From: a virus | IMG/VR virus record: IMGVR_UViG_3300042868_010462 | Span: 32,001 to 96,000 of that record | DNA: 64,000 nucleotides | Strand: one strand, 5' to 3' | Shown here: positions 6,277-55,259 of the stretch, one piece after another | Layout: each line of letters begins with the position of its first letter | Numbering within the stretch: position 1 is the first letter of the stretch | Translations under genes and position numbers: made by a program | The notes under the pieces: model-generated | The model's database searches: none | What the model saw: only the letters and a program-made list of their open reading frames with translations | What the model was told of the DNA's origin: nothing

Positions 6277-7005
6277 ATGACTCAAAGAAGAAAAACGAAT
6301 CAACAACAAGAACCTGAACAAAAAAATAAAACTAAAAAGGAGATTATTTCAGAAATAATCAAAAAGAAATCTAAGGAAAAATTTTTAACTGAAAATCAAA
6401 AATTGTATTACGATTTACTTAAAAAAAATCAGATAACGATTTGTTCAGGTCCTGCGGGTGTTGGTAAATCTTACATTGCAATGAAAGCAGCTATCGACTT
6501 GTTAGCCGACCCCCAATCACCATATGAAAAAATTATTATAGTTAGACCAGCTGTTGAAGCAGAAGAAAAACTAGGTTCATTACCAGGAAATGTTGAGGAA
6601 AAATTAGACCCATATATTTTCCCATCATATTATTTGATGAATAAAATCATTGGTAAAGAAGCGAGAGAGAAACTTAAAGAAAATGATATTATTGAAGTTT
6701 TTGCTTTAGCATATATGAGAGGTATGAACATTGACAATTCACTTTTAATATTCGAGGAAGCACAAAACTCAACACCAAATCAAATGAAATTACTATTGAC
6801 AAGAATAGGATTCAATAGTAAATTTTTTATCAGTGGTGACTTAGAACAAACTGATAGATACAAAGACAAAACACATTCAGGTTTATATGATGCAATAAAA
6901 AAATTCAAGGACTTAAGTGATGTTGGTGTTTTTGAATTTGATACTCAGGATGTTGTAAGAAACCCATTAATCGGTAAAATCTTAAAAAGATACGAAGATA
7001 AATGA
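6277..7005 (+). CDS. phoH: PhoH-family ATPase
   Basis: GPAGVGKS, RPAVEAEEKLGSLPG, LAYMRG, EEAQN, LLTRIG, GDLEQTD, VVRNPL. Confidence 0.95.
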   Translation: MTQRRKTNQQQEPEQKNKTKKEIISEIIKKKSKEKFLTENQKLYYDLLKKNQITICSGPAGVGKSYIAMKAAIDLLADPQSPYEKIIIVRPAVEAEEKLGSLPGNVEEKLDPYIFPSYYLMNKIIGKEAREKLKENDIIEVFALAYMRGMNIDNSLLIFEEAQNSTPNQMKLLLTRIGFNSKFFISGDLEQTDRYKDKTHSGLYDAIKKFKDLSDVGVFEFDTQDVVRNPLIGKILKRYEDK

Positions 7006-41405: not shown

Positions 41406-41786
41406 GGGGGTAATCTGGAATCGACTGACGTTGTTAGTTATTCGGGGCATGCCGGACCTGAACTAAGTCCGTTAAACTGGTTTGAAACGATACACGGCAA
41501 CGTTATCAACAAACTTTCTGCAGTAGGTTTAATCCGTGCTGAAGAAGCAGTAGTAGCCTAGTCAATAGGTTATCACTTTCGAGTCGGGGTGCATTAACTC
41601 AGGAACAGGAGCACTATAGGGTTGTCTAACTAATTCTCATCCCTAAAAATGAATTGGCTGATTTTTTTGGTTTTGGTAGTAATTAAAATCAAATAGCTCG
41701 GAACACTGCGAATAATGTTGTCCTAAGCATGTAGTCCTTAATAGTTAAGATGGACAGGAAGGAGTTCGAATCTCCGTGCCTCCACC
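41406..41786 (+). ncRNA. ssrA: tmRNA
   Basis: 5' GGGGGUA pairs with 3' UGCCUCC-A (G3:U70); GGAAUCGAC, GCAUG..., AAGCAUGUAG, T-arm GGAG-UUCGAAU-CUCC; tag ORF 41496-41561. Confidence 0.95.
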
Positions 41787-41792
41787 GTAGAC

Positions 41793-46995: not shown

Positions 46996-47487
46996 TTATA
47001 CTAATTGTAAGTTATTTTCTTCACAAAACCAATAGGGAACATCACGATTTTTCCAAGAAACAAAATCTTTTTTTGCACCAATATAATAGTTTCTATATGA
47101 TTGAATTACATCTTTAACCTTATATTCATCAGGCATTGCTTTGGGTGGTTCAGTGAAATCCTTATCCTTTACATTAATTGGATTCATTACACACCATTCA
47201 ATAACATCTTGTGATTTATGTCTTTTACCATAACGATAAGTGTATTCTTTACACAACTCCAACCCCAATTCACATAGGTAATAATAGTTAGATAATGACT
47301 CTCTAACCCATATTGAACAGGGGTGGTTTTTGTGTGATAATTTATATGGAATATCTAAACCTGAGTTTGTAACATGGTGAGCACCACACAAAAGTTGAGC
47401 CGCCTCCAATAGTTGTTTAACACAATGTTTATCACAATGATATCTTGCACACTTGATGACATCATAATCCAATAAAAAAATATTCAT
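46996..47487 (-). CDS. pyrimidine-dimer DNA glycosylase/endonuclease V-related family
   Basis: MNIF.LD....CA..HCDKH.VK..LE.AQLL; H.NHPC..W; EY..RYGK.H; YR.YY. Confidence 0.8.
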   Translation of the reverse strand: MNIFLLDYDVIKCARYHCDKHCVKQLLEAAQLLCGAHHVTNSGLDIPYKLSHKNHPCSIWVRESLSNYYYLCELGLELCKEYTYRYGKRHKSQDVIEWCVMNPINVKDKDFTEPPKAMPDEYKVKDVIQSYRNYYIGAKKDFVSWKNRDVPYWFCEENNLQLV

Positions 47488-47508: not shown

Positions 47509-48477
47509 TTAATAGCTATACCTTTCAAAACTTTTCAACCCTGATTGACTCAAAACAATATCACCACATTTTATTAAATCCTCAATTATTTTTTTTGGAA
47601 TATATGGCGACTCCTTTTCAGTTATCACAACAAAGTTACTACCATATTTTTTAATTCCCAAACTTAACTTCAAAGAATTATCTTTATAATTCAATAAACT
47701 TGTGGGTTTTATCTCATAGATGGTTTTACCATCCGTAAAATCAGGATAATACATTTTACATCGGTTACCAATATTGTACTCAATACCATATTGATTATTC
47801 TCACAACTTTCATAAACTATACTACAATTATTAATTAAGAATGAAAGTTCCAAAGAACTTCTAAAATATAACCCTTTAAACCAACCATTTAAGTGTTTGG
47901 TGTTCATAGGATAACTTATAAATCTATCTTTATCTTTATTATTGGTATGAAATTGAATTAAAGAATCTTTAATTTTTCTTTTGGTTGTTTCATTATGATA
48001 TATCGTACCATTTCTTTTTTTTGAATCAATTATGTTTTTTTGCCATCCTTCTGTTCTAGGGCTTTTTTTCCCTTTATTACTTTCACTAATTCTAACAGAT
48101 ACCTCAATCATTTTTGATGGATTATCAACTCCAAACTTCTCCATCATTGTTTTTTTTCGTTGTAATTCCTTCTTTTTTTGGTCAGTACTTTCAATTCTTT
48201 TTTTAATAGTTGAATCACTTTGTTTTTTACCTTTCCAAAATCCTCGTTCAATTGATTTGTTTTTATCTCTACACTCCATTGAACAATTTTCCAAATAACC
48301 AACACTAAGATTTCTAAATGATGTCAAATTACCACATACAAAACATTTATCCCCATCAGCTTCCAATATATACTTGTCATAGTAATCTTTTGATGATATA
48401 TTATGTTTTGAGTTAAAGTGTGATGATAGAGCTTTTGGATTTTTGAACTCACAATCACATATTTTACATTTTTCCAT
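47509..48477 (-). CDS. homing endonuclease (C2H2/NUMOD3-like N-terminus plus TnsA-like PD-(D/E)XK)
   Basis: CKIC..H...H; basic repeats; FRSSLE, YYPDF, YEIKP. Confidence 0.8.
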   Translation of the reverse strand: MEKCKICDCEFKNPKALSSHFNSKHNISSKDYYDKYILEADGDKCFVCGNLTSFRNLSVGYLENCSMECRDKNKSIERGFWKGKKQSDSTIKKRIESTDQKKKELQRKKTMMEKFGVDNPSKMIEVSVRISESNKGKKSPRTEGWQKNIIDSKKRNGTIYHNETTKRKIKDSLIQFHTNNKDKDRFISYPMNTKHLNGWFKGLYFRSSLELSFLINNCSIVYESCENNQYGIEYNIGNRCKMYYPDFTDGKTIYEIKPTSLLNYKDNSLKLSLGIKKYGSNFVVITEKESPYIPKKIIEDLIKCGDIVLSQSGLKSFERYSY

Positions 48478-48560: not shown

Positions 48561-48983
48561 TTATTTTTCTTGAATGGTGAACGGATGAACTTTCAATTTT
48601 GCGGTTTGTTCCTTATCCAAATGTTTTAAGAAACCATTAATATAATTAACAATATTAGCAGCTCCAACAGGATTGGCGGAGTGAACATATATTTGAGGGA
48701 AAGGACTTGTAAAGTTGTCCATATAGTGACCAACCAACCATTTTGCGGCATCATATCCAGTTTTTTCTTCGATGTTATCATAATCCAATATTCCTTTTTT
48801 AATTACATTTCTAAAATATTCCTCAACCGCAGTATCACCCAAATCGTGGTCAAATGAAATAACATCAACATTGTCCAAACCAAGTTCGTTAATCTTCTTG
48901 ATAAAAGCACCATAGTTTCTAACAACAATCCAATCTTTGTCATCAGGAGTTCTTTCATCATCCAAATAGATTTTATATTTCAT
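48561..48983 (-). CDS. cyclic-phosphate-processing receiver-domain protein
   Basis: IYLDDERTP, ISFDHDLG, TGYD..KWL, VHSANPVG. Confidence 0.85.
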   Translation of the reverse strand: MKYKIYLDDERTPDDKDWIVVRNYGAFIKKINELGLDNVDVISFDHDLGDTAVEEYFRNVIKKGILDYDNIEEKTGYDAAKWLVGHYMDNFTSPFPQIYVHSANPVGAANIVNYINGFLKHLDKEQTAKLKVHPFTIQEK

Positions 48984-51146: not shown

Positions 51147-51160
51147 AATTTTTGTTTTAG

Positions 51161-51247
51161 TACACCCAGTAGGACTCGAACCTACAACGACCTTTCGGTA
51201 CCACTCCGCTTAGAAGGCGGGCATTCTTCCAATTGAATTATGGGTGC
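51161..51247 (-). tRNA. tRNA-Arg(UCU) with long variable arm
   Basis: Loop CU-UCU-AA; extra arm ACC-GAAA-GGU. Confidence 0.85.
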
Positions 51248-51350
51248 TAATCGATTGTCTTTCCAATCTGTCAGGTACTTCTATACCAATGAGACGAATT
51301 GTTTTTTTTTCAGTCGCATTACTTTCTGGAACTTCGTCAAAACCAAGTTG

Positions 51351-51431
51351 TAGTCAGTATAGGAATCGAACCCATATAATTTCATCTCAAGTCTAAGACT
51401 CGGAATTACTGTAACCACCCAGTGACTGACT
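51351..51431 (-). ncRNA. tRNA-like element (AGUCAG family) copy 1
   Basis: AGUCAGU/ACUGACU acceptor, UUCGAUU T-loop, non-canonical anticodon arm. Confidence 0.6.
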
Positions 51432-51646
51432 TTCCCCCACCTTGAGATTACTGGTGAGTAGTTATTTCGGTTTTTATGCTATTCAAAAAACCTGTTGGGC
51501 ATCCCCACTGAAAAAAGTCACACATACGAAGGAGGGGGTGTGCTGCCGCCTTTAACCCTAAGAATCGGCATTCCGTTGTCCGATTTGAACGAGTTCATTG
51601 TTAAATGAGTCTTGAACCAAAGACTGCTGAGTATCTCTTACTCATT
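51432..51646 (-). ncRNA. unidentified multi-hairpin structured RNA
   Basis: GC-enriched, no track ORF, at least 5 hairpins (UGAGUA/UACUCA, AGUCUU/AAGACU, AAUCGG/CCGAUU, GGUUUUU/AAAAACC). Confidence 0.5.
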
Positions 51647-51647
51647 G

Positions 51648-51754
51648 TAGTCAGGACAGGATTCGAACCTGTAAAATCTTTTATCTGGTTTAGGGTAGGT
51701 TCTATTCCTATCTCCTTCCAAAACATATAGCGTCTACCATTCCGCCACCTGACT
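51648..51754 (-). ncRNA. tRNA-like element (AGUCAG family) copy 2
   Basis: AGUCAGG/CCUGACU acceptor, Leu-type D arm, ACAGG-UUCGAAU-CCUGU; anticodon domain replaced by about 55 nt. Confidence 0.7.
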
Positions 51755-51759
51755 AAATT

Positions 51760-52020
51760 TTAATTCAGTGCATCTATTTCCATACAATACAAACCGAACT
51801 CTTGTATTTCATCACCATATCTATACTTGTAAGTTCCCTCATAAATGTCGGGATAACTACTATCATAAGGAAAATAACCCAAGTATTCAACATCCTTATC
51901 TTCAAAGTAGGGTGGTAATCCCATATACTCATCCAAGAGTTGTTTGACCTTTTCAACTGTCGTTGCAGTTAGTACTGGGATTTTATCTTCCCTATCTACT
52001 ATAAGATATATTAGTGCCAT
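51760..52020 (-). CDS. hypothetical protein
   Basis: ORF. Confidence 0.6.
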   Translation of the reverse strand: MALIYLIVDREDKIPVLTATTVEKVKQLLDEYMGLPPYFEDKDVEYLGYFPYDSSYPDIYEGTYKYRYGDEIQEFGLYCMEIDALN

Positions 52021-52391
52021 TGTTGTAAACTTTTATTTATATTAATTTTTGTCAATTTTTTTTTTCTTTTTTTTTTATTTTTTTCTTTTCCTTTTTTTTC
52101 TTTTATTTTTTTTTCTTTTGTTTTTACGACTTCCACCAAATCCATTTCTGGGTCAGATAATTCTTGATAACCAAACATTGAAAAGTCAGAAATATAAGAC
52201 CACCACTTTCCATCAAAAACATATCTTTCATGGTCTATTTTTGGTTTTTTATTGTCAATGCTTTTACCAAAATAAATTCCATCCCATCCATCTCTTTTCC
52301 CTTCTATTGGTGGATTACCCTTGATAATTTTTACTAATCTACCATCTCTACTCTTGTAAGTTTTACCTACTTCTAAAATTATATTTTCCAT
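52011..52391 (-). CDS. hypothetical protein
   Basis: True start probably 52391 (MENIILEVGKTYKSRDG); the longer track ORF runs through a tRNA-like element. Confidence 0.6.
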   Translation of the reverse strand: MENIILEVGKTYKSRDGRLVKIIKGNPPIEGKRDGWDGIYFGKSIDNKKPKIDHERYVFDGKWWSYISDFSMFGYQELSDPEMDLVEVVKTKEKKIKEKKGKEKNKKKRKKKLTKININKSLQQWH

Positions 52392-52423
52392 ATTTATAAT
52401 TTTTATTTTTTTAAATAAGTTAG

Positions 52424-52504
52424 TAGTCAGGACAGGATTCGAACTTGTGACGATAAACGCAGATGTGTACCTCATCTTGGCAGCTCCAATTCTGCCACCT
52501 GACT
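52424..52504 (-). ncRNA. tRNA-like element (AGUCAG family) copy 3
   Basis: Same acceptor and T arm as copy 2; loop AG-GUA-CA lacks U33. Confidence 0.7.
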
Positions 52505-52604
52505 TTGTTTGTTTAAACTTTTCGGTTTTCCTATTCAAAACCTTAACGTCAGGCAACAATCTAAGTGTCAGCCACTACTTGTGAATTATTAGGTGTCACA
52601 ACCA

Positions 52605-52835
52605 TTAGAAATATTTTCTTGTAAGATATTCATCAGTTCCTAAACTTGGTGCGTTGTTATTTTCATCTAAATGAAGAAACATAAATCCTTTGTAAGCGTT
52701 GGCTTCTAATAGAATCTTTTCAATCATTGTGATGATTCCAAGTTTTTCTTCCATCATAATGTTTGGATGGGCTAATTGTTCGTTAGCGAAGTTTTTAATC
52801 ATCTCAACTTGGATTGTTTTTTTCTCTTTAGCCAT
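52605..52835 (-). CDS. hypothetical protein
   Basis: ORF; TAnnTTTG at 52858-52865. Confidence 0.65.
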   Translation of the reverse strand: MAKEKKTIQVEMIKNFANEQLAHPNIMMEEKLGIITMIEKILLEANAYKGFMFLHLDENNNAPSLGTDEYLTRKYF

Positions 52836-52920: not shown

Positions 52921-52991
52921 AGCGGATAGTTGGTACTGCCCCAACTTATCTAGTTTGGAAGACTAGAACATTACTTTTATGCTATGCCCGC
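52921..52991 (-). tRNA. tRNA-Gly(UCC), atypical T-loop
   Basis: Loop CU-UCC-AA; T-loop GGCAGUA. Confidence 0.8.
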
Positions 52992-54442: not shown

Positions 54443-54455
54443 AAAACAATTTTTT

Positions 54456-54533
54456 TGGTGGAGACAGTGAGAATCAAACTCACCTCACAGATATTGCAAA
54501 TATCCATCGCCAAGTCTTGGTACATGTGCCCCC
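54456..54533 (-). tRNA. tRNA-Ala(UGC), atypical D arm
   Basis: G3:U70; loop UU-UGC-AA; encoded CCA. Confidence 0.85.
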
Positions 54534-54541
54534 ATTTTTAT

Positions 54542-55063
54542 TTATAACCCAATTTCCTCCAAAGGTAAAACCTCAAAGAAATATTTACAACCAACATCTG
54601 TTATATATTCAAAAACATCCTTATAACAATCTTTATTGAAAAAATTACTTAAGACATAATAGTACTCAACTTGGATACCGATTGGACTAAACAATTTTTT
54701 ATATTGTCTTTTTTTGAAATTACAAGTTTGTAATTTCTCATCAACAGAACCGGCACCATTTTGGTATTTCTTTTCAATTATGTAGATGGTATTCCCCACT
54801 AATATTGCAGCATCAGGTAAAAGTTTTTTACTGATAATCGTATTGTGGTCAATATTATATCTACTTAACAATTTTTTGTACAGACCATATTTCTCAAAAT
54901 ATTCACCGACAATTATACCATTTTTTACAATTTGGTCTTGATTATCCATCACATAATCACTTTGTTCCACTAACAATTTTTTTAGGTGTGTTGTAGCTTC
55001 AAAATGTAATCCGTTAACATTTGTGTTTGCACCCCCACCACTTTTGTTTGGCGTTCTATTCAT
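54542..55063 (-). CDS. PD-(D/E)XK restriction-endonuclease-like nuclease
   Basis: GGANTN..GL.FE; LLPD...IIEKKYQ..GSVDEKLQT. Confidence 0.7.
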   Translation of the reverse strand: MNRTPNKSGGGANTNVNGLHFEATTHLKKLLVEQSDYVMDNQDQIVKNGIIVGEYFEKYGLYKKLLSRYNIDHNTIISKKLLPDAAILVGNTIYIIEKKYQNGAGSVDEKLQTCNFKKRQYKKLFSPIGIQVEYYYVLSNFFNKDCYKDVFEYITDVGCKYFFEVLPLEEIGL

Positions 55064-55079
55064 AGTTTTTCTTTTTTTG

Positions 55080-55164
55080 TGGTGGGAATGGAGGGATTCG
55101 AACCCCCTCAGCTAATACAAATGATTTACAGTCATCCCCGACTCTCCAGCTTCGGCGCACTCCC
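55080..55164 (-). tRNA. tRNA-Tyr(GUA)
   Basis: Loop CU-GUA-AA; encoded CCA. Confidence 0.9.
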
Positions 55165-55175
55165 ATTATAAATTG

Positions 55176-55250
55176 ATGCAGGAACGGGAGTCGAACCCGT
55201 ATGGTACGGCTTATGAGACCGAGCTGGAACCACTTCCAGTCCATCCTGCA
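55176..55250 (-). tRNA. tRNA-Met(CAU)
   Basis: Loop CU-CAU-AA; UGCAGGA acceptor. Confidence 0.85.
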
Positions 55251-55259
55251 TTGTGTTTG

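What the first reader, a model, noticed from the sequence alone, without database searches (positions are those of the whole stretch)
51351..52504. Family of tRNA-like RNAs with fixed AGUCAG acceptor and T arm but scrambled anticodon domains
Seen: three elements (51351-51431, 51648-51754, 52424-52504) share acceptor AGUCAG(G/U)...(C/A)CUGACU-A and an intact UUCGA T-loop; two share the 3' 20+ nt exactly (GUUCGAAUCCUGUCCUGACUAC). The anticodon domains are unrelated and non-canonical: a tight CUUAG loop, a roughly 55-nt insert, and AG-GUA-CA lacking U33. They punctuate small accessory ORFs and other structured RNAs. Inference: selection keeps the elbow and acceptor shape (recognised by RNase P/Z, CCA enzyme, EF-Tu or Ro-type proteins) but not decoding. 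Possible roles are processing signals that release neighbouring RNAs, tRNA-mimic decoys, or recombination anchors for gene cassettes.
Basis: partly seen in the sequence, partly recalled or inferred. Interest (0 to 1): 0.72.

Follow-up and report, generated by a model that had tools for sequence, protein, structure and literature searches.

The report
Phage leucine-tRNA-shaped RNAs carrying swappable inserts
Three small genes in a large uncultured phage keep the upper body of a leucine tRNA but carry unrelated folded inserts where the anticodon arm should be; they belong to a big phage RNA family, absent from the databases and papers I searched, whose function is still unknown.

Summary
Three minus-strand elements share the AGUCAG acceptor, A73 and a UUCGA T-loop: E1 51351-51431, E2 51648-51754 and E3 52424-52504. 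E2 and E3 share 22 identical 3' bases.

They are not decoders, suppressors, intron-containing tRNAs or decaying pseudogenes. They belong to a very large phage family. Members keep one constant frame derived from tRNA-Leu. The interior varies from 14 to about 130 nt.

- **The cargo is functional RNA.** Individual cargo types are conserved and show compensatory changes.
- **The cargo is exchanged.** Related phages carry unrelated cargo between identical frames at the same locus.
- **Turnover in this phage.** A 94-100% identical relative lacks E1 and its trailer.
- **Maturation.** The flanks carry the same signals as true tRNAs in these phages (U-1, encoded C74 but no CCA). The frame keeps the bacterial LeuRS identity set.

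My best reading, at about 50%, is a tRNA chassis that matures and stabilises interchangeable effector RNAs. The function is not shown and I found no expression data.

The closest known are the T5 RNA1/RNA2 and T4 rnaC/rnaD stable RNAs, which are analogues rather than members. This scan has already met the same family in at least 32 other genomes.

The parts
51648..51754 (-). E2: 107-nt full-consensus member. Frame AGUCAGG-UG-GCGGAAUGGUAGACGC ... ACAGGUUCGAAUCCUGU-CCUGACU-A. The 57-nt interior forms a long irregular hairpin with loop AAUAGAA.
   Evidence: Rfam tRNA 39.2 bits. Family model R1 75.5 bits. The same cargo occurs at about 93% identity in other phage contexts, L263 and L264. It is 100% identical in relative G001.
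52424..52504 (-). E3: 81-nt member with the shortest interior. It has an anticodon-arm-like hairpin (loop AGGUACA, so G33 and C37), a 12-nt variable region, and an A52-C62 mismatch in the T stem.
   Evidence: ARAGORN Tyr-GUA. Rfam 30.1 bits. R1 57.7 bits. Identical copies occur only in near-identical phages, L061 and L241.
51351..51431 (-). E1: 81-nt member with a divergent frame (C8, a non-Leu D region, T stem AUGGG/CCUAU, pair 7-66 U-A). The cargo is a hairpin with a UUA triloop followed by GAGAUGAAAUUAU.
   Evidence: R1 39.9 bits. The same cargo type sits in the standard frame in L148, L147 and L004. There the loop is UUA or AUA, one stem pair changes G-C to C-G, and the frame changes are compensated.
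51252..51431 (-). E1 cassette: E1 plus its 99-nt 3' trailer. It is present here and absent from the 94-100% identical relative.
   Evidence: Alignment with G001/L121 jumps from window 51251 to 51432.
51432..51646 (-). Neighbouring 215-nt ORF-free structured RNA (X1) lying exactly between E2 and E1. It is a separate family, not part of the tRNA-like family.
   Evidence: 69-79% identical stretches in four other family loci, L009, L081, L059 and L055. No Rfam match. No match in GenBank phages.
52520..52542 (-). Small hairpin GGUUUU-GAAUAG-GAAAACC-GAAA upstream of E3. A second copy lies at 51465-51492, inside X1, upstream of E1.
   Evidence: Local alignment and coordinates.
51160..51247 (-). Context: tRNA-Arg(UCU), 88 nt, with an unusual long variable-arm hairpin (ACC-GAAA-GGU). 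It is replaced by an ordinary shorter, 81%-identical tRNA-Arg in the close relative.
   Evidence: ARAGORN and Rfam. Alignment with L121.

Best explanation
E1, E2 and E3 are non-decoding RNAs built on a constant chassis derived from tRNA-Leu.

**Proposed mechanism.**
- They are transcribed with the phage tRNA array.
- They are matured like the neighbouring tRNAs: RNase P cuts at the U/A(-1)|A(+1) junction, the 3' end is trimmed to A73-C74, and the CCA enzyme completes it.
- The 7-bp acceptor, the Leu-type D arm and the T arm fold into the tRNA elbow and acceptor-T helix.
- The anticodon and variable region is replaced by a cargo module, which is a different folded RNA in each copy.
- The chassis supplies processing, stability and a standard shape. 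Because it keeps the LeuRS identity set, it may also be leucylated and bound by EF-Tu.
- The cargo is the working part. It probably acts on host or phage factors.
- Cargo is exchanged between phages by recombination inside the constant frame.

**Shown here:** family membership, loss of decoding features, constraint on the frame, conservation and covariation of the cargo, cargo swapping, and tRNA-type flanks.

**Inferred:** expression, processing, CCA addition, charging, and any cargo function.
For: **Family.**
- There are 170 distinct members of 65-182 nt with the same ends.
- In the same loci, tRNA-like elements with other acceptor stems have a median length of 74 nt. The AGUCAGG class has a median of 103 nt.

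**tRNA-Leu origin.**
- The D arm UGGCGGAAU(U)GGUAGACGC matches the phage's own tRNA-Leu.
- Model R1 scores the window's own tRNA-Leu(UAA) at 46.1 bits. Its acceptor GGUUGGG differs from AGUCAGG only by transitions.

**Constraint at the RNA level.**
- U8 95%, A14 85%, A15 84%, U48 79%, A73 100%.
- The D stem has changes on both sides at all 3 pairs.
- E1's frame changes are compensated.

**Not a decoder.**
- Only 25 of 127 members get an intron-less ARAGORN call, with scattered and often A34 anticodons.
- 'Intron' positions are random.
- The genome reads well under code 11.
- E1's UUA is AUA in relatives.

**Cargo is functional RNA.**
- Subfamilies show conserved loops with covarying stems, for example L010/L046, L066/L098/L076 and L050/L091/L072.
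- E1-type and E2-type cargo is kept in unrelated flanks.
- Cargo folds better than shuffled sequence (mean z -0.52, p 3e-8).

**Swapping.**
- At orthologous sites with 87-100% identical flanks and identical frames, the cargo is unrelated. Set L016/L082, L075/L089, L111 and L024 shows this, as does set L030/L118 versus L054/L077.

**Maturation.**
- Family flanks: U-1 78%, A-2 73%, C74 99%, then A-rich.
- True tRNAs of the same loci: U-1 64%, C74 192/192, CCA encoded in only 16.

**Charging is possible.**
- For bacterial LeuRS the determinants are A73 and the U8-A14, G18-U55 and G19-C56 core.
- The anticodon arm is dispensable for aminoacylation (PMC2377443).
Against:
- **No cargo has a recognised function.** There were no Rfam hits in 15 loci and no common motif. 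Complementarity to the phage's own genome is at chance level. GenBank phages give only chance-level matches.
- **No linked protein partner.** The commonest neighbouring protein family is present in only 15 of 121 loci.
- **The acceptor sequence itself is nearly invariant.** It is identical in 160 of 182 elements that have this acceptor type. A mere chassis would not need that. It points to a sequence-specific partner or to homogenisation by recombination.
- **Cargo structure is only modest** (5% of members have z below -2).
- **Sampling bias.** Most members were collected with a pattern that fixed the 3' frame.
Confidence: 0.5

Rival explanations
1. Only the frame matters. The RNAs would be abundant mimics of the tRNA top half that soak up a factor recognising the acceptor, CCA end or elbow. 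Candidates are tRNA-targeting defence nucleases or toxins, LeuRS, or the RNase P/CCA enzymes. The interior would be tolerated filler that only has to fold without disturbing the frame.
For: The frame is far more conserved than the interior, and the acceptor sequence is nearly invariant. Interiors have no shared motif. Host defences that cut class II tRNAs, and phage tRNAs acting as decoy or supplement, are documented (PMC13096335).
Against: Filler does not explain conserved loop sequences with covarying stems. Nor does it explain identical cargo types kept in unrelated contexts and even in a diverged frame (E1 versus L148). Several copies per genome with different cargo, rather than plain duplicates, also fit poorly.
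Confidence: 0.2
2. The function is at the DNA level. The constant 25-nt frames would be shared homology that lets phages exchange the DNA between them, acting as recombination anchors. The tRNA shape would be inherited baggage from a tRNA-Leu gene.
For: Homology breakpoints fall inside the frames. A block containing two cargos, a spacer and in one phage an ORF is exchanged, with its right border in a 3' frame. The E1 cassette indel and the tRNA-Arg swap are seen between 94-100% identical phages. A homing-endonuclease-like ORF lies at 47509-48477.
Against: A DNA-only role does not explain three things: wobble-only variation on the 5' acceptor strand, D-stem covariation, and compensated changes in E1. 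It also does not explain retention of U8, A14, G18G19, U48 and A73, or of tRNA-type U-1/C74 flanks. Recombination at any conserved repeat is expected as a side effect.
Confidence: 0.1
3. They are punctuation marks. RNase P and RNase Z cleavage at the frames would cut the polycistronic transcript to release and stabilise neighbours, namely the 215-nt X1 RNA and the small-ORF mRNAs.
For: E2 starts 5 nt after the stop codon of ORF 51760-52020. X1 is bounded exactly by E2 and E1. In two other phage groups the element starts 12-45 nt after a conserved ORF. The flanks carry tRNA processing signals.
Against: Any ordinary tRNA could do this, and the arrays are already full of them. The idea does not explain conserved, swappable cargo or the invariant frame.
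Confidence: 0.1
4. They decode. E3 would be a nuclease-resistant tRNA-Tyr(GUA), E1 an ochre suppressor (UUA), and E2 a tRNA-Gln(UUG) with a 29-nt intron.
For: ARAGORN makes these calls. The close relative lacks the 800-bp block that holds the canonical tRNA-Tyr.
Against: - E3 lacks both U33 and a purine at position 37, and has a T-stem mismatch.
- E1's loop is AUA in relatives, and the stem leaves only 3-5 loop bases.
- The E2 call needs a relaxed threshold, an A-G mismatch and an intron at 38/39, and a canonical tRNA-Gln(UUG) exists at 61264-61337.
- Code 11 gives 90.5% coding coverage with no sign of recoding.
- Family-wide calls are scattered.
Confidence: 0.05
5. They are decaying tRNA pseudogenes or recombination debris.
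For: Some cargos contain T-arm-like hairpins or D-loop insertions that look like nested tRNA fragments. E3 has a T-stem mismatch.
Against: The frame is held across more than 120 divergent contigs with wobble or compensatory variation only. Cargo types are conserved.
Confidence: 0.03

Closest known systems
Phage T5 RNA1 and RNA2 (GenBank AY543070, misc_RNA, 'tRNA-like stable RNA with unknown functions')
   Same: They lie in the phage tRNA gene cluster. Both have a paired acceptor, a T arm and a long non-anticodon interior. RNA1 has a Leu-type D arm (GCCGGAAUUGGUAGACGG). RNA2 has the same T arm, GCAGGUUCGAAUCCUGU, and an internal T-arm-like hairpin like some cargos.
   Different: The acceptor sequences differ. 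The family model scores only 24.2 bits (RNA2, partial match) and 12.4 bits (RNA1), no better than ordinary tRNAs. Rfam tRNA gives 24 bits for RNA1. They are analogues or distant relatives, not members. Their function is also unknown.
Phage T4 rnaC (species 1) and rnaD (species 2) stable RNAs
   Same: They are small stable RNAs at the end of the T4 tRNA cluster, next to a homing endonuclease gene. rnaC ends in a canonical T arm followed by an acceptor-like 3' strand.
   Different: rnaC scores 21 bits with the family model and rnaD does not match. Neither has a Leu-type D arm.
Class II bacterial and phage tRNA-Leu (Rfam RF00005)
   Same: They share the D arm, T loop, A73, the U8-A14 and A15-U48 core, and C74-only 3' flanks. 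The window's own tRNA-Leu(UAA) scores 46.1 bits on the family model.
   Different: The family has no 5-bp anticodon stem with a 7-nt U33/R37 loop. The interior is 14-130 nt and variable.
Engineered 'tRNA scaffold' for expressing recombinant RNAs (from my own knowledge: Ponchon and Dardel 2007) and aptamer-tagged tRNAs (PMC7590224)
   Same: The design is the same: foreign RNA is inserted in place of the anticodon arm so that the tRNA body provides processing and stability.
   Different: Those are man-made. This would be a natural counterpart, and it is unproven.
tmRNA and YrlA-type Y RNAs (bacterial tRNA mimics)
   Same: They are tRNA-like domains joined to non-tRNA modules. The phage also encodes a tmRNA (41406-41787) and a DUF2828 protein.
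   Different: tmRNA has G3-U70, pseudoknots and a tag ORF. In YrlA the 5' and 3' ends form the Ro-binding stem and the acceptor is closed by a loop. Neither Rfam model matches the elements at E up to 10.

Membership tests
Phage tRNA-Leu-frame cargo RNAs (AGUCAGG family, not in Rfam) | 7-bp acceptor AGUCAGG/CCUGACU, then A73 and an encoded C74 | tested here: met
   E2 and E3 match exactly. E1 has AGUCAGU/ACUGACU, a compensated change. All three have A73 and C74.
Phage tRNA-Leu-frame cargo RNAs (AGUCAGG family, not in Rfam) | Leu-type D arm (U8, G10-C25 stem, A14 A15, G18G19) and T arm ACAGG-UUCGAAU-CCUGU | tested here: met
   E2 has the full set. E3 has it apart from C48 and an A52-C62 mismatch. 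E1 keeps the T arm with compensated changes but has a divergent D region (C8). Model R1 gives 75.5, 57.7 and 39.9 bits.
Phage tRNA-Leu-frame cargo RNAs (AGUCAGG family, not in Rfam) | Interior is a non-canonical, copy-specific module; the gene lies in a phage tRNA array | tested here: met
   The interiors are 31, 57 and 31 nt and unrelated to each other. The elements sit among 20 tRNA genes found by ARAGORN or Rfam.
Canonical elongator tRNA (RF00005) | 5-bp anticodon stem and 7-nt loop with U33 and a purine at position 37 | tested here: not met
   The E3 loop is AGGUACA. E1 has a 3-5-nt loop. E2 has a 39-nt irregular hairpin with loop AAUAGAA.
Suppressor tRNA of a recoded phage | Conserved anticodon complementary to a stop codon, plus in-frame stops in phage genes | tested here: not met
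   UUA in E1 and L148 is AUA in L147 and L004. Code 11 gives 90.5% coverage, and reading TAG or TGA as sense brings no gain.
Intron-containing tRNA | Insert at a fixed position (37/38) whose removal restores a canonical anticodon arm | tested here: not met
   ARAGORN 'introns' start at positions 29-41 with lengths of 2-87 nt and random anticodons. The E2 call needs relaxed settings and a mismatch.
YrlA / Y RNA | Ro-binding stem formed by the 5' and 3' ends, and a tRNA-like domain with a closed acceptor | tested here: not met
   No RF02553 match at E up to 10 in 51250-52650. The ends form an open acceptor with a discriminator base.
tmRNA | tRNA-Ala-like acceptor with G3-U70, a tag ORF and pseudoknots | tested here: not met
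   Pair 3-70 is U-A. Only 41406-41787 matches RF00023.
T5 RNA1/RNA2 and T4 rnaC/rnaD stable RNAs | Sequence and structure homology to those RNAs | tested here: inconclusive
   The architecture is shared, but model scores are 12-24 bits, within the range of ordinary tRNAs.
Leucine-accepting RNA (LeuRS substrate) | Aminoacylation by LeuRS; the sequence prerequisites are A73 and the U8-A14, G18-U55 and G19-C56 core | not testable with these tools
   The prerequisites are present in E2 and E3 and in 136 of 170 members. They are defined in PMC2377443. Charging itself needs an experiment.

The most novel reading that the evidence does not exclude
Phages run a natural 'tRNA-scaffold' cassette system. 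One universal tRNA-Leu top half is processed by RNase P and completed with CCA, and may be leucylated. It would carry a very large, fast-turning library of small effector RNAs, such as aptamers, decoys or inhibitors aimed at host defence or translation factors. New cargos would be acquired by recombination inside the constant frame. This would be an RNA counterpart of integron or anti-defence gene cassettes.
Probability: 0.3. Interest if true: 0.85.

Novelty: new variant of a known kind. Interest (0 to 1): 0.62.

Why it matters
tRNA-like stable RNAs in the tRNA clusters of T4 and T5 are annotated as of unknown function. From my own knowledge they have been known since the 1970s-80s.

These elements show that the same design is widespread in uncultured phages, probably mostly of Bacteroidota. 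They also show that it is under strong selection and is modular: one frame with very many cargos, exchanged at the frame.

- **If the cargos are effectors,** this is a large untapped class of phage regulatory or anti-defence RNAs. It would also be a natural precedent for the tRNA scaffolds used in RNA engineering.
- **If the frame is charged with leucine,** it is a new class of non-decoding aminoacyl-RNA.
- **For annotation,** tRNA finders mislabel these genes as Tyr, Gln-with-intron or suppressor tRNAs. That can wrongly suggest stop-codon recoding.

Tried and rejected
- **Suppressor, recoding and intron readings.** Rejected.
- **Linked protein partner.** I clustered 2,480 ORFs from 121 loci. 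No family is present in more than 15 loci, and the top ones are DUF932, terminase, a phosphoesterase and T5orf172.
- **RNA-repair and maturation enzymes in this contig.** RtcB, the CCA-adding enzyme and RNA ligase are all absent, but the record is only about 50% complete.
- **Known RNA families in the cargo.** Rfam finds only tRNA and tmRNA in 15 loci.
- **Shared cargo motif.** None beyond one subfamily and mis-parsed D arms.
- **Antisense targets in the phage's own genome.** The longest complements, 10-13 nt, are no longer than for shuffled cargo.
- **Cargo, X1 RNA or frame in GenBank phages.** The E2 cargo gives only chance-level matches, X1 gives none, and the frame gives only partial T-arm matches.
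- **Host tRNA with this frame.** There are 21 hits in 185,579 species genomes. Almost all are short MAG contigs carrying family members, many binned to Bacteroidota. The one isolate hit, in Hymenobacter montanus, looks like a tRNA gene with a replaced 3' end.
- **Own promoter.** A Bacteroidota-type TAnnTTTG motif at -12 occurs in only 6 of 167 upstream regions.
- **Literature.** Six searches found no description of the family. One further search was rejected for a term that was too short.
- **E3 15-mer scan.** It was too short and gave mostly chance hits. Only L061 and L241 are real.
Full report
**1. What is there**

The window is bases 32001-96000 of a 147,874-bp virus record with 30.6% G+C. 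CheckV rates the record as about 50% complete. Standard code 11 gives 90.5% coding coverage. Reading TAG or TGA as sense brings no gain.

The minus strand between 50 and 61 kb carries a tRNA array. ARAGORN finds 19 tRNAs and Rfam finds 19 plus a tmRNA, which makes 20 distinct tRNA genes.

The three elements lie on that strand at the stated coordinates.
- **E2 (51648-51754)** matches the Rfam tRNA model end to end at 39.2 bits, with about 30 extra interior bases.
- **E3 (52424-52504)** scores 30.1 bits. ARAGORN calls it Tyr-GUA, but its loop is AGGUACA, with G33 and C37.
- **E1 (51351-51431)** is found only with relaxed settings, as 'Stop-UUA'.

E2 and E3 share their first 11 and last 22 bases. 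A model of the family finds exactly these three copies in the whole contig.

**2. They belong to a very large phage family**

Some loci hold up to six copies within 5 kb.

- They share AGUCAGG-UG-GCGGAAU(U)GGUAGACGC at the 5' end.
- They share ACAGGUUCGAAUCCUGU-CCUGACU-A at the 3' end.
- The interior between these ends is 14 to about 130 nt long, which gives total lengths of 65-182 nt.

In the same loci, tRNA-like elements with any other acceptor stem have normal lengths (median 74 nt). The AGUCAGG class has a median of 103 nt. A few related frames with altered acceptors also carry long interiors, for example AGUCUUG and AGCCAAG.

Among 185,579 prokaryote species genomes the frame occurs 21 times. 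Almost all are short MAG contigs that carry family members, many of them binned to Bacteroidota. No host tRNA has this frame. GenBank phages have no exact copy.

This scan has already reported the same family in at least 32 other genomes. I re-derived the points below independently.

**3. The frame is a tRNA-Leu top half under selection at the RNA level**

The D arm is that of tRNA-Leu. The window's own tRNA-Leu(UAG) reads UGGCGGAAUAGGUAGACGC. The family model scores the window's tRNA-Leu(UAA) at 46.1 bits, and its acceptor differs from AGUCAGG only by transitions.

Across the 170 members the core is kept as follows:

| Position | Kept in |
|---|---|
| U8 | 95% |
| A14 | 85% |
| A15 | 84% |
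| GG at 18/19 | 91% |
| U48 | 79% |
| UUCGAWU T-loop | 100% |
| A73 | 100% |

The last two were partly fixed by the search pattern.

The 5' acceptor strand was not fixed by the pattern. It varies almost only at A1, C4 and A5, where a transition leaves a G-U pair: 20 such variants against 2 that give a mismatch. The D stem was also unbiased, and it shows changes on both sides at all three pairs. E1's divergent frame is fully compensated: pair 7-66 changes G-C to U-A, and pair 50-64 changes C-G to U-A.

These are the determinants reported for bacterial LeuRS, namely A73 and the U8-A14, G18-U55 and G19-C56 core. The anticodon arm is dispensable for aminoacylation (PMC2377443). Charging is therefore possible, but I did not test it.

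**4. They are not decoders**

Only 25 of 127 members get an intron-less ARAGORN call. The anticodons are scattered and often begin with A34. When introns are allowed, the predicted positions run from 29 to 41 with random anticodons.

E1's UUA is AUA in two relatives, and a stem pair covaries, so this is a hairpin and not an anticodon arm. E3 lacks both U33 and a purine at position 37. E2's interior is a 39-nt irregular hairpin. The phage already has canonical tRNA-Tyr and tRNA-Gln genes.

**5. The interior is cargo, not debris**

Most interiors are unique in this sample. Only 33 of 170 fall into small groups. Within those groups, loops are conserved while stems covary.
- L010 and L046 share the loop GCUGGGUAA and an 11-nt leader, while five stem pairs change.
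- L066, L098 and L076, and also L050, L091 and L072, show further compensatory changes.

The E1-type cargo occurs in three other phages, in L148 within the standard frame. The E2-type cargo occurs at about 93% identity in two other, unrelated contexts.

Interiors fold slightly but significantly better than shuffled sequence (mean z -0.52, p 3e-8). They match no Rfam family, share no motif, and show no above-chance complementarity to the phage genome.

**6. Cargo and cassettes are exchanged at the frames**

At one orthologous site the flanks are 87-95% identical. The phages L016/L082, L075/L089, L111 and L024 carry four unrelated cargos there, between identical frames. At another site L030/L118 and L054/L077 differ only in the cargo.

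Between L026 and L113 a whole block is replaced. It comprises cargo, spacer or small ORF, and a second cargo. Its right border lies inside a 3' frame.

In this phage, a relative that is 94-100% identical over the compared stretches (G001) has identical E2 and E3. It lacks E1 and its 99-nt trailer (window 51252-51431), and it carries a different tRNA-Arg. It also lacks the 800-bp block 54455-55255.

**7. Maturation signals**

Upstream of the family members, position -1 is U in 78% and -2 is A in 73%. Downstream, C74 is present in 99%, followed by an A-rich trailer, and CCA is not encoded.

True tRNAs from the same loci show the same signature: U-1 in 64%, C74 in 192 of 192, and CCA encoded in only 16. 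From my own knowledge, U-1 is the nucleotide that bacterial RNase P prefers.

The elements therefore look like substrates of the same maturation pathway. E2 begins 5 nt after a stop codon, and X1 is bounded exactly by E2 and E1, so co-transcription followed by cleavage is likely. This is inference.

**8. Neighbourhood**

No protein family is consistently linked to the family. The maximum is 15 of 121 loci.

Near the elements this phage has the following genes:
- a cREC_REC 'cyclic-phosphate processing' protein at 48561-48983;
- a homing-endonuclease-like ORF at 47509-48477;
- a DUF2828+DUF7788 protein at 61914-63311.

RtcB, the CCA-adding enzyme and RNA ligase were not found in the half of the genome that is held.

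**9. Comparison with known RNAs**

T5 RNA1 and RNA2 are annotated as 'tRNA-like stable RNA with unknown functions'. They share the architecture: RNA1 has a Leu-type D arm, and RNA2 has the same T arm and an inner T-arm-like hairpin. They score only 12-24 bits on the family model, as does T4 rnaC at 21 bits. Ordinary tRNAs reach 27-46 bits. I therefore treat them as analogues, not members.

SPP1 has a weak candidate at 6647-6756, with 24 bits, an identical D arm, discriminator U and an odd T loop. The YrlA and tmRNA models do not match the elements.

The six completed literature searches found no description of the family.

**10. Verdict**

The interiors, however, are conserved and exchangeable modules rather than scrambled remains.

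I think a tRNA chassis that matures and stabilises interchangeable effector RNAs is the most likely mechanism, at about 0.5. Top-half decoys (0.2), DNA-level recombination anchors (0.1) and transcript punctuation (0.1) remain live alternatives. Expression, CCA addition, charging and any cargo function are untested.

Noticed in passing
window 51160-51247 (-): The tRNA-Arg(UCU) is 88 nt long with a class-II-like variable-arm hairpin (ACC-GAAA-GGU). The 94-100% identical relative G001 has an ordinary shorter tRNA-Arg at the same place, and the two tRNA genes are only 81% identical. Decoding tRNAs here may also carry swappable add-ons.
   Followed up: partly
window 54455-55255: An 800-bp block is absent from relative G001. 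It holds a PD-(D/E)XK-nuclease-like ORF (54542-55063, weak Pfam hit), tRNA-Tyr (55080-55164) and a tRNA-Met (55175-55250). It looks like a mobile nuclease-plus-tRNA cassette.
   Followed up: partly
window 51432-51646 (-), and hairpins at 51465-51492 and 52520-52542: A 215-nt ORF-free structured RNA lies exactly between E2 and E1. It is 69-79% identical to stretches in four other family loci and has no Rfam or GenBank-phage match. A small hairpin, GGUUUU..GAAUAG..AAAACC-GAAA, recurs upstream of E1 and E3.
   Followed up: partly
window 52921-52991 (-): Rfam finds a tRNA (40.7 bits) that ARAGORN misses. Its anticodon loop is CUUCCAA (UCC, Gly) and its T loop is unusual.
   Followed up: no
window 41406-41787 (+): A phage-encoded tmRNA (Rfam 90.4 bits) lies on the strand opposite to the tRNA array.
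   Followed up: no
window 48561-48983 (-), 47509-48477 (-), 46996-47487 (-): Just downstream of the array lie a cREC_REC 'cyclic-phosphate processing receiver' protein (E 5e-24), a homing-endonuclease-like ORF (PHROG 3339; weak zinc-finger and NUMOD3 hits) and a pyrimidine-dimer glycosylase-like protein.
   Followed up: no
window 61914-63311 (-): A 465-aa protein with DUF2828 and DUF7788 domains (E 1e-40 and 2e-51). Other readers flagged it as Ro60/TROVE-like with Y-RNA-like neighbours. I confirmed only the Pfam domains.
   Followed up: partly
family loci L001-L144 (canonical tRNAs): All 192 ordinary tRNA genes in these phage loci encode C74 after the discriminator, but only 16 encode CCA. The usual 3' flank is N73-C-A-A or N73-C-U-A.
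   Followed up: yes
L038, L099 and L011 (156-168-nt elements): A second family of long tRNA-like elements. The acceptors are UGUAAGG, UGUAGAG and UGUCAGG, the discriminator is G, there is an insert in the D loop, and the interior is conserved (including GGGUUGACCACAAAGCCGGCU).
   Followed up: no
L267 (Bacillus phage SPP1) 6647-6756 (+): A candidate tRNA-Leu-frame RNA (24 bits on the family model). It has the acceptor AACACGG/CCGUGUU, the D arm UGGCGGAAUAGGUAGACGC, a 55-nt interior and discriminator U. It overlaps the doubtful 'gene 10' and could be a laboratory model.
   Followed up: partly
window 52011-52391 (-): A small ORF between E3 and E2 ends in a lysine-rich tail, which is encoded by the long T-rich tract at 52050-52120 on the plus strand. 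It has no Pfam or PHROG match.
   Followed up: no
L134 (Hymenobacter montanus) about 6790-6881: This is the only isolate genome with the 3' frame. It looks like an Arg(CCU)-type tRNA gene whose 3' end was replaced by ...UUCGAUUCCUGUCCUGACUAC. That may be an integration scar.
   Followed up: no
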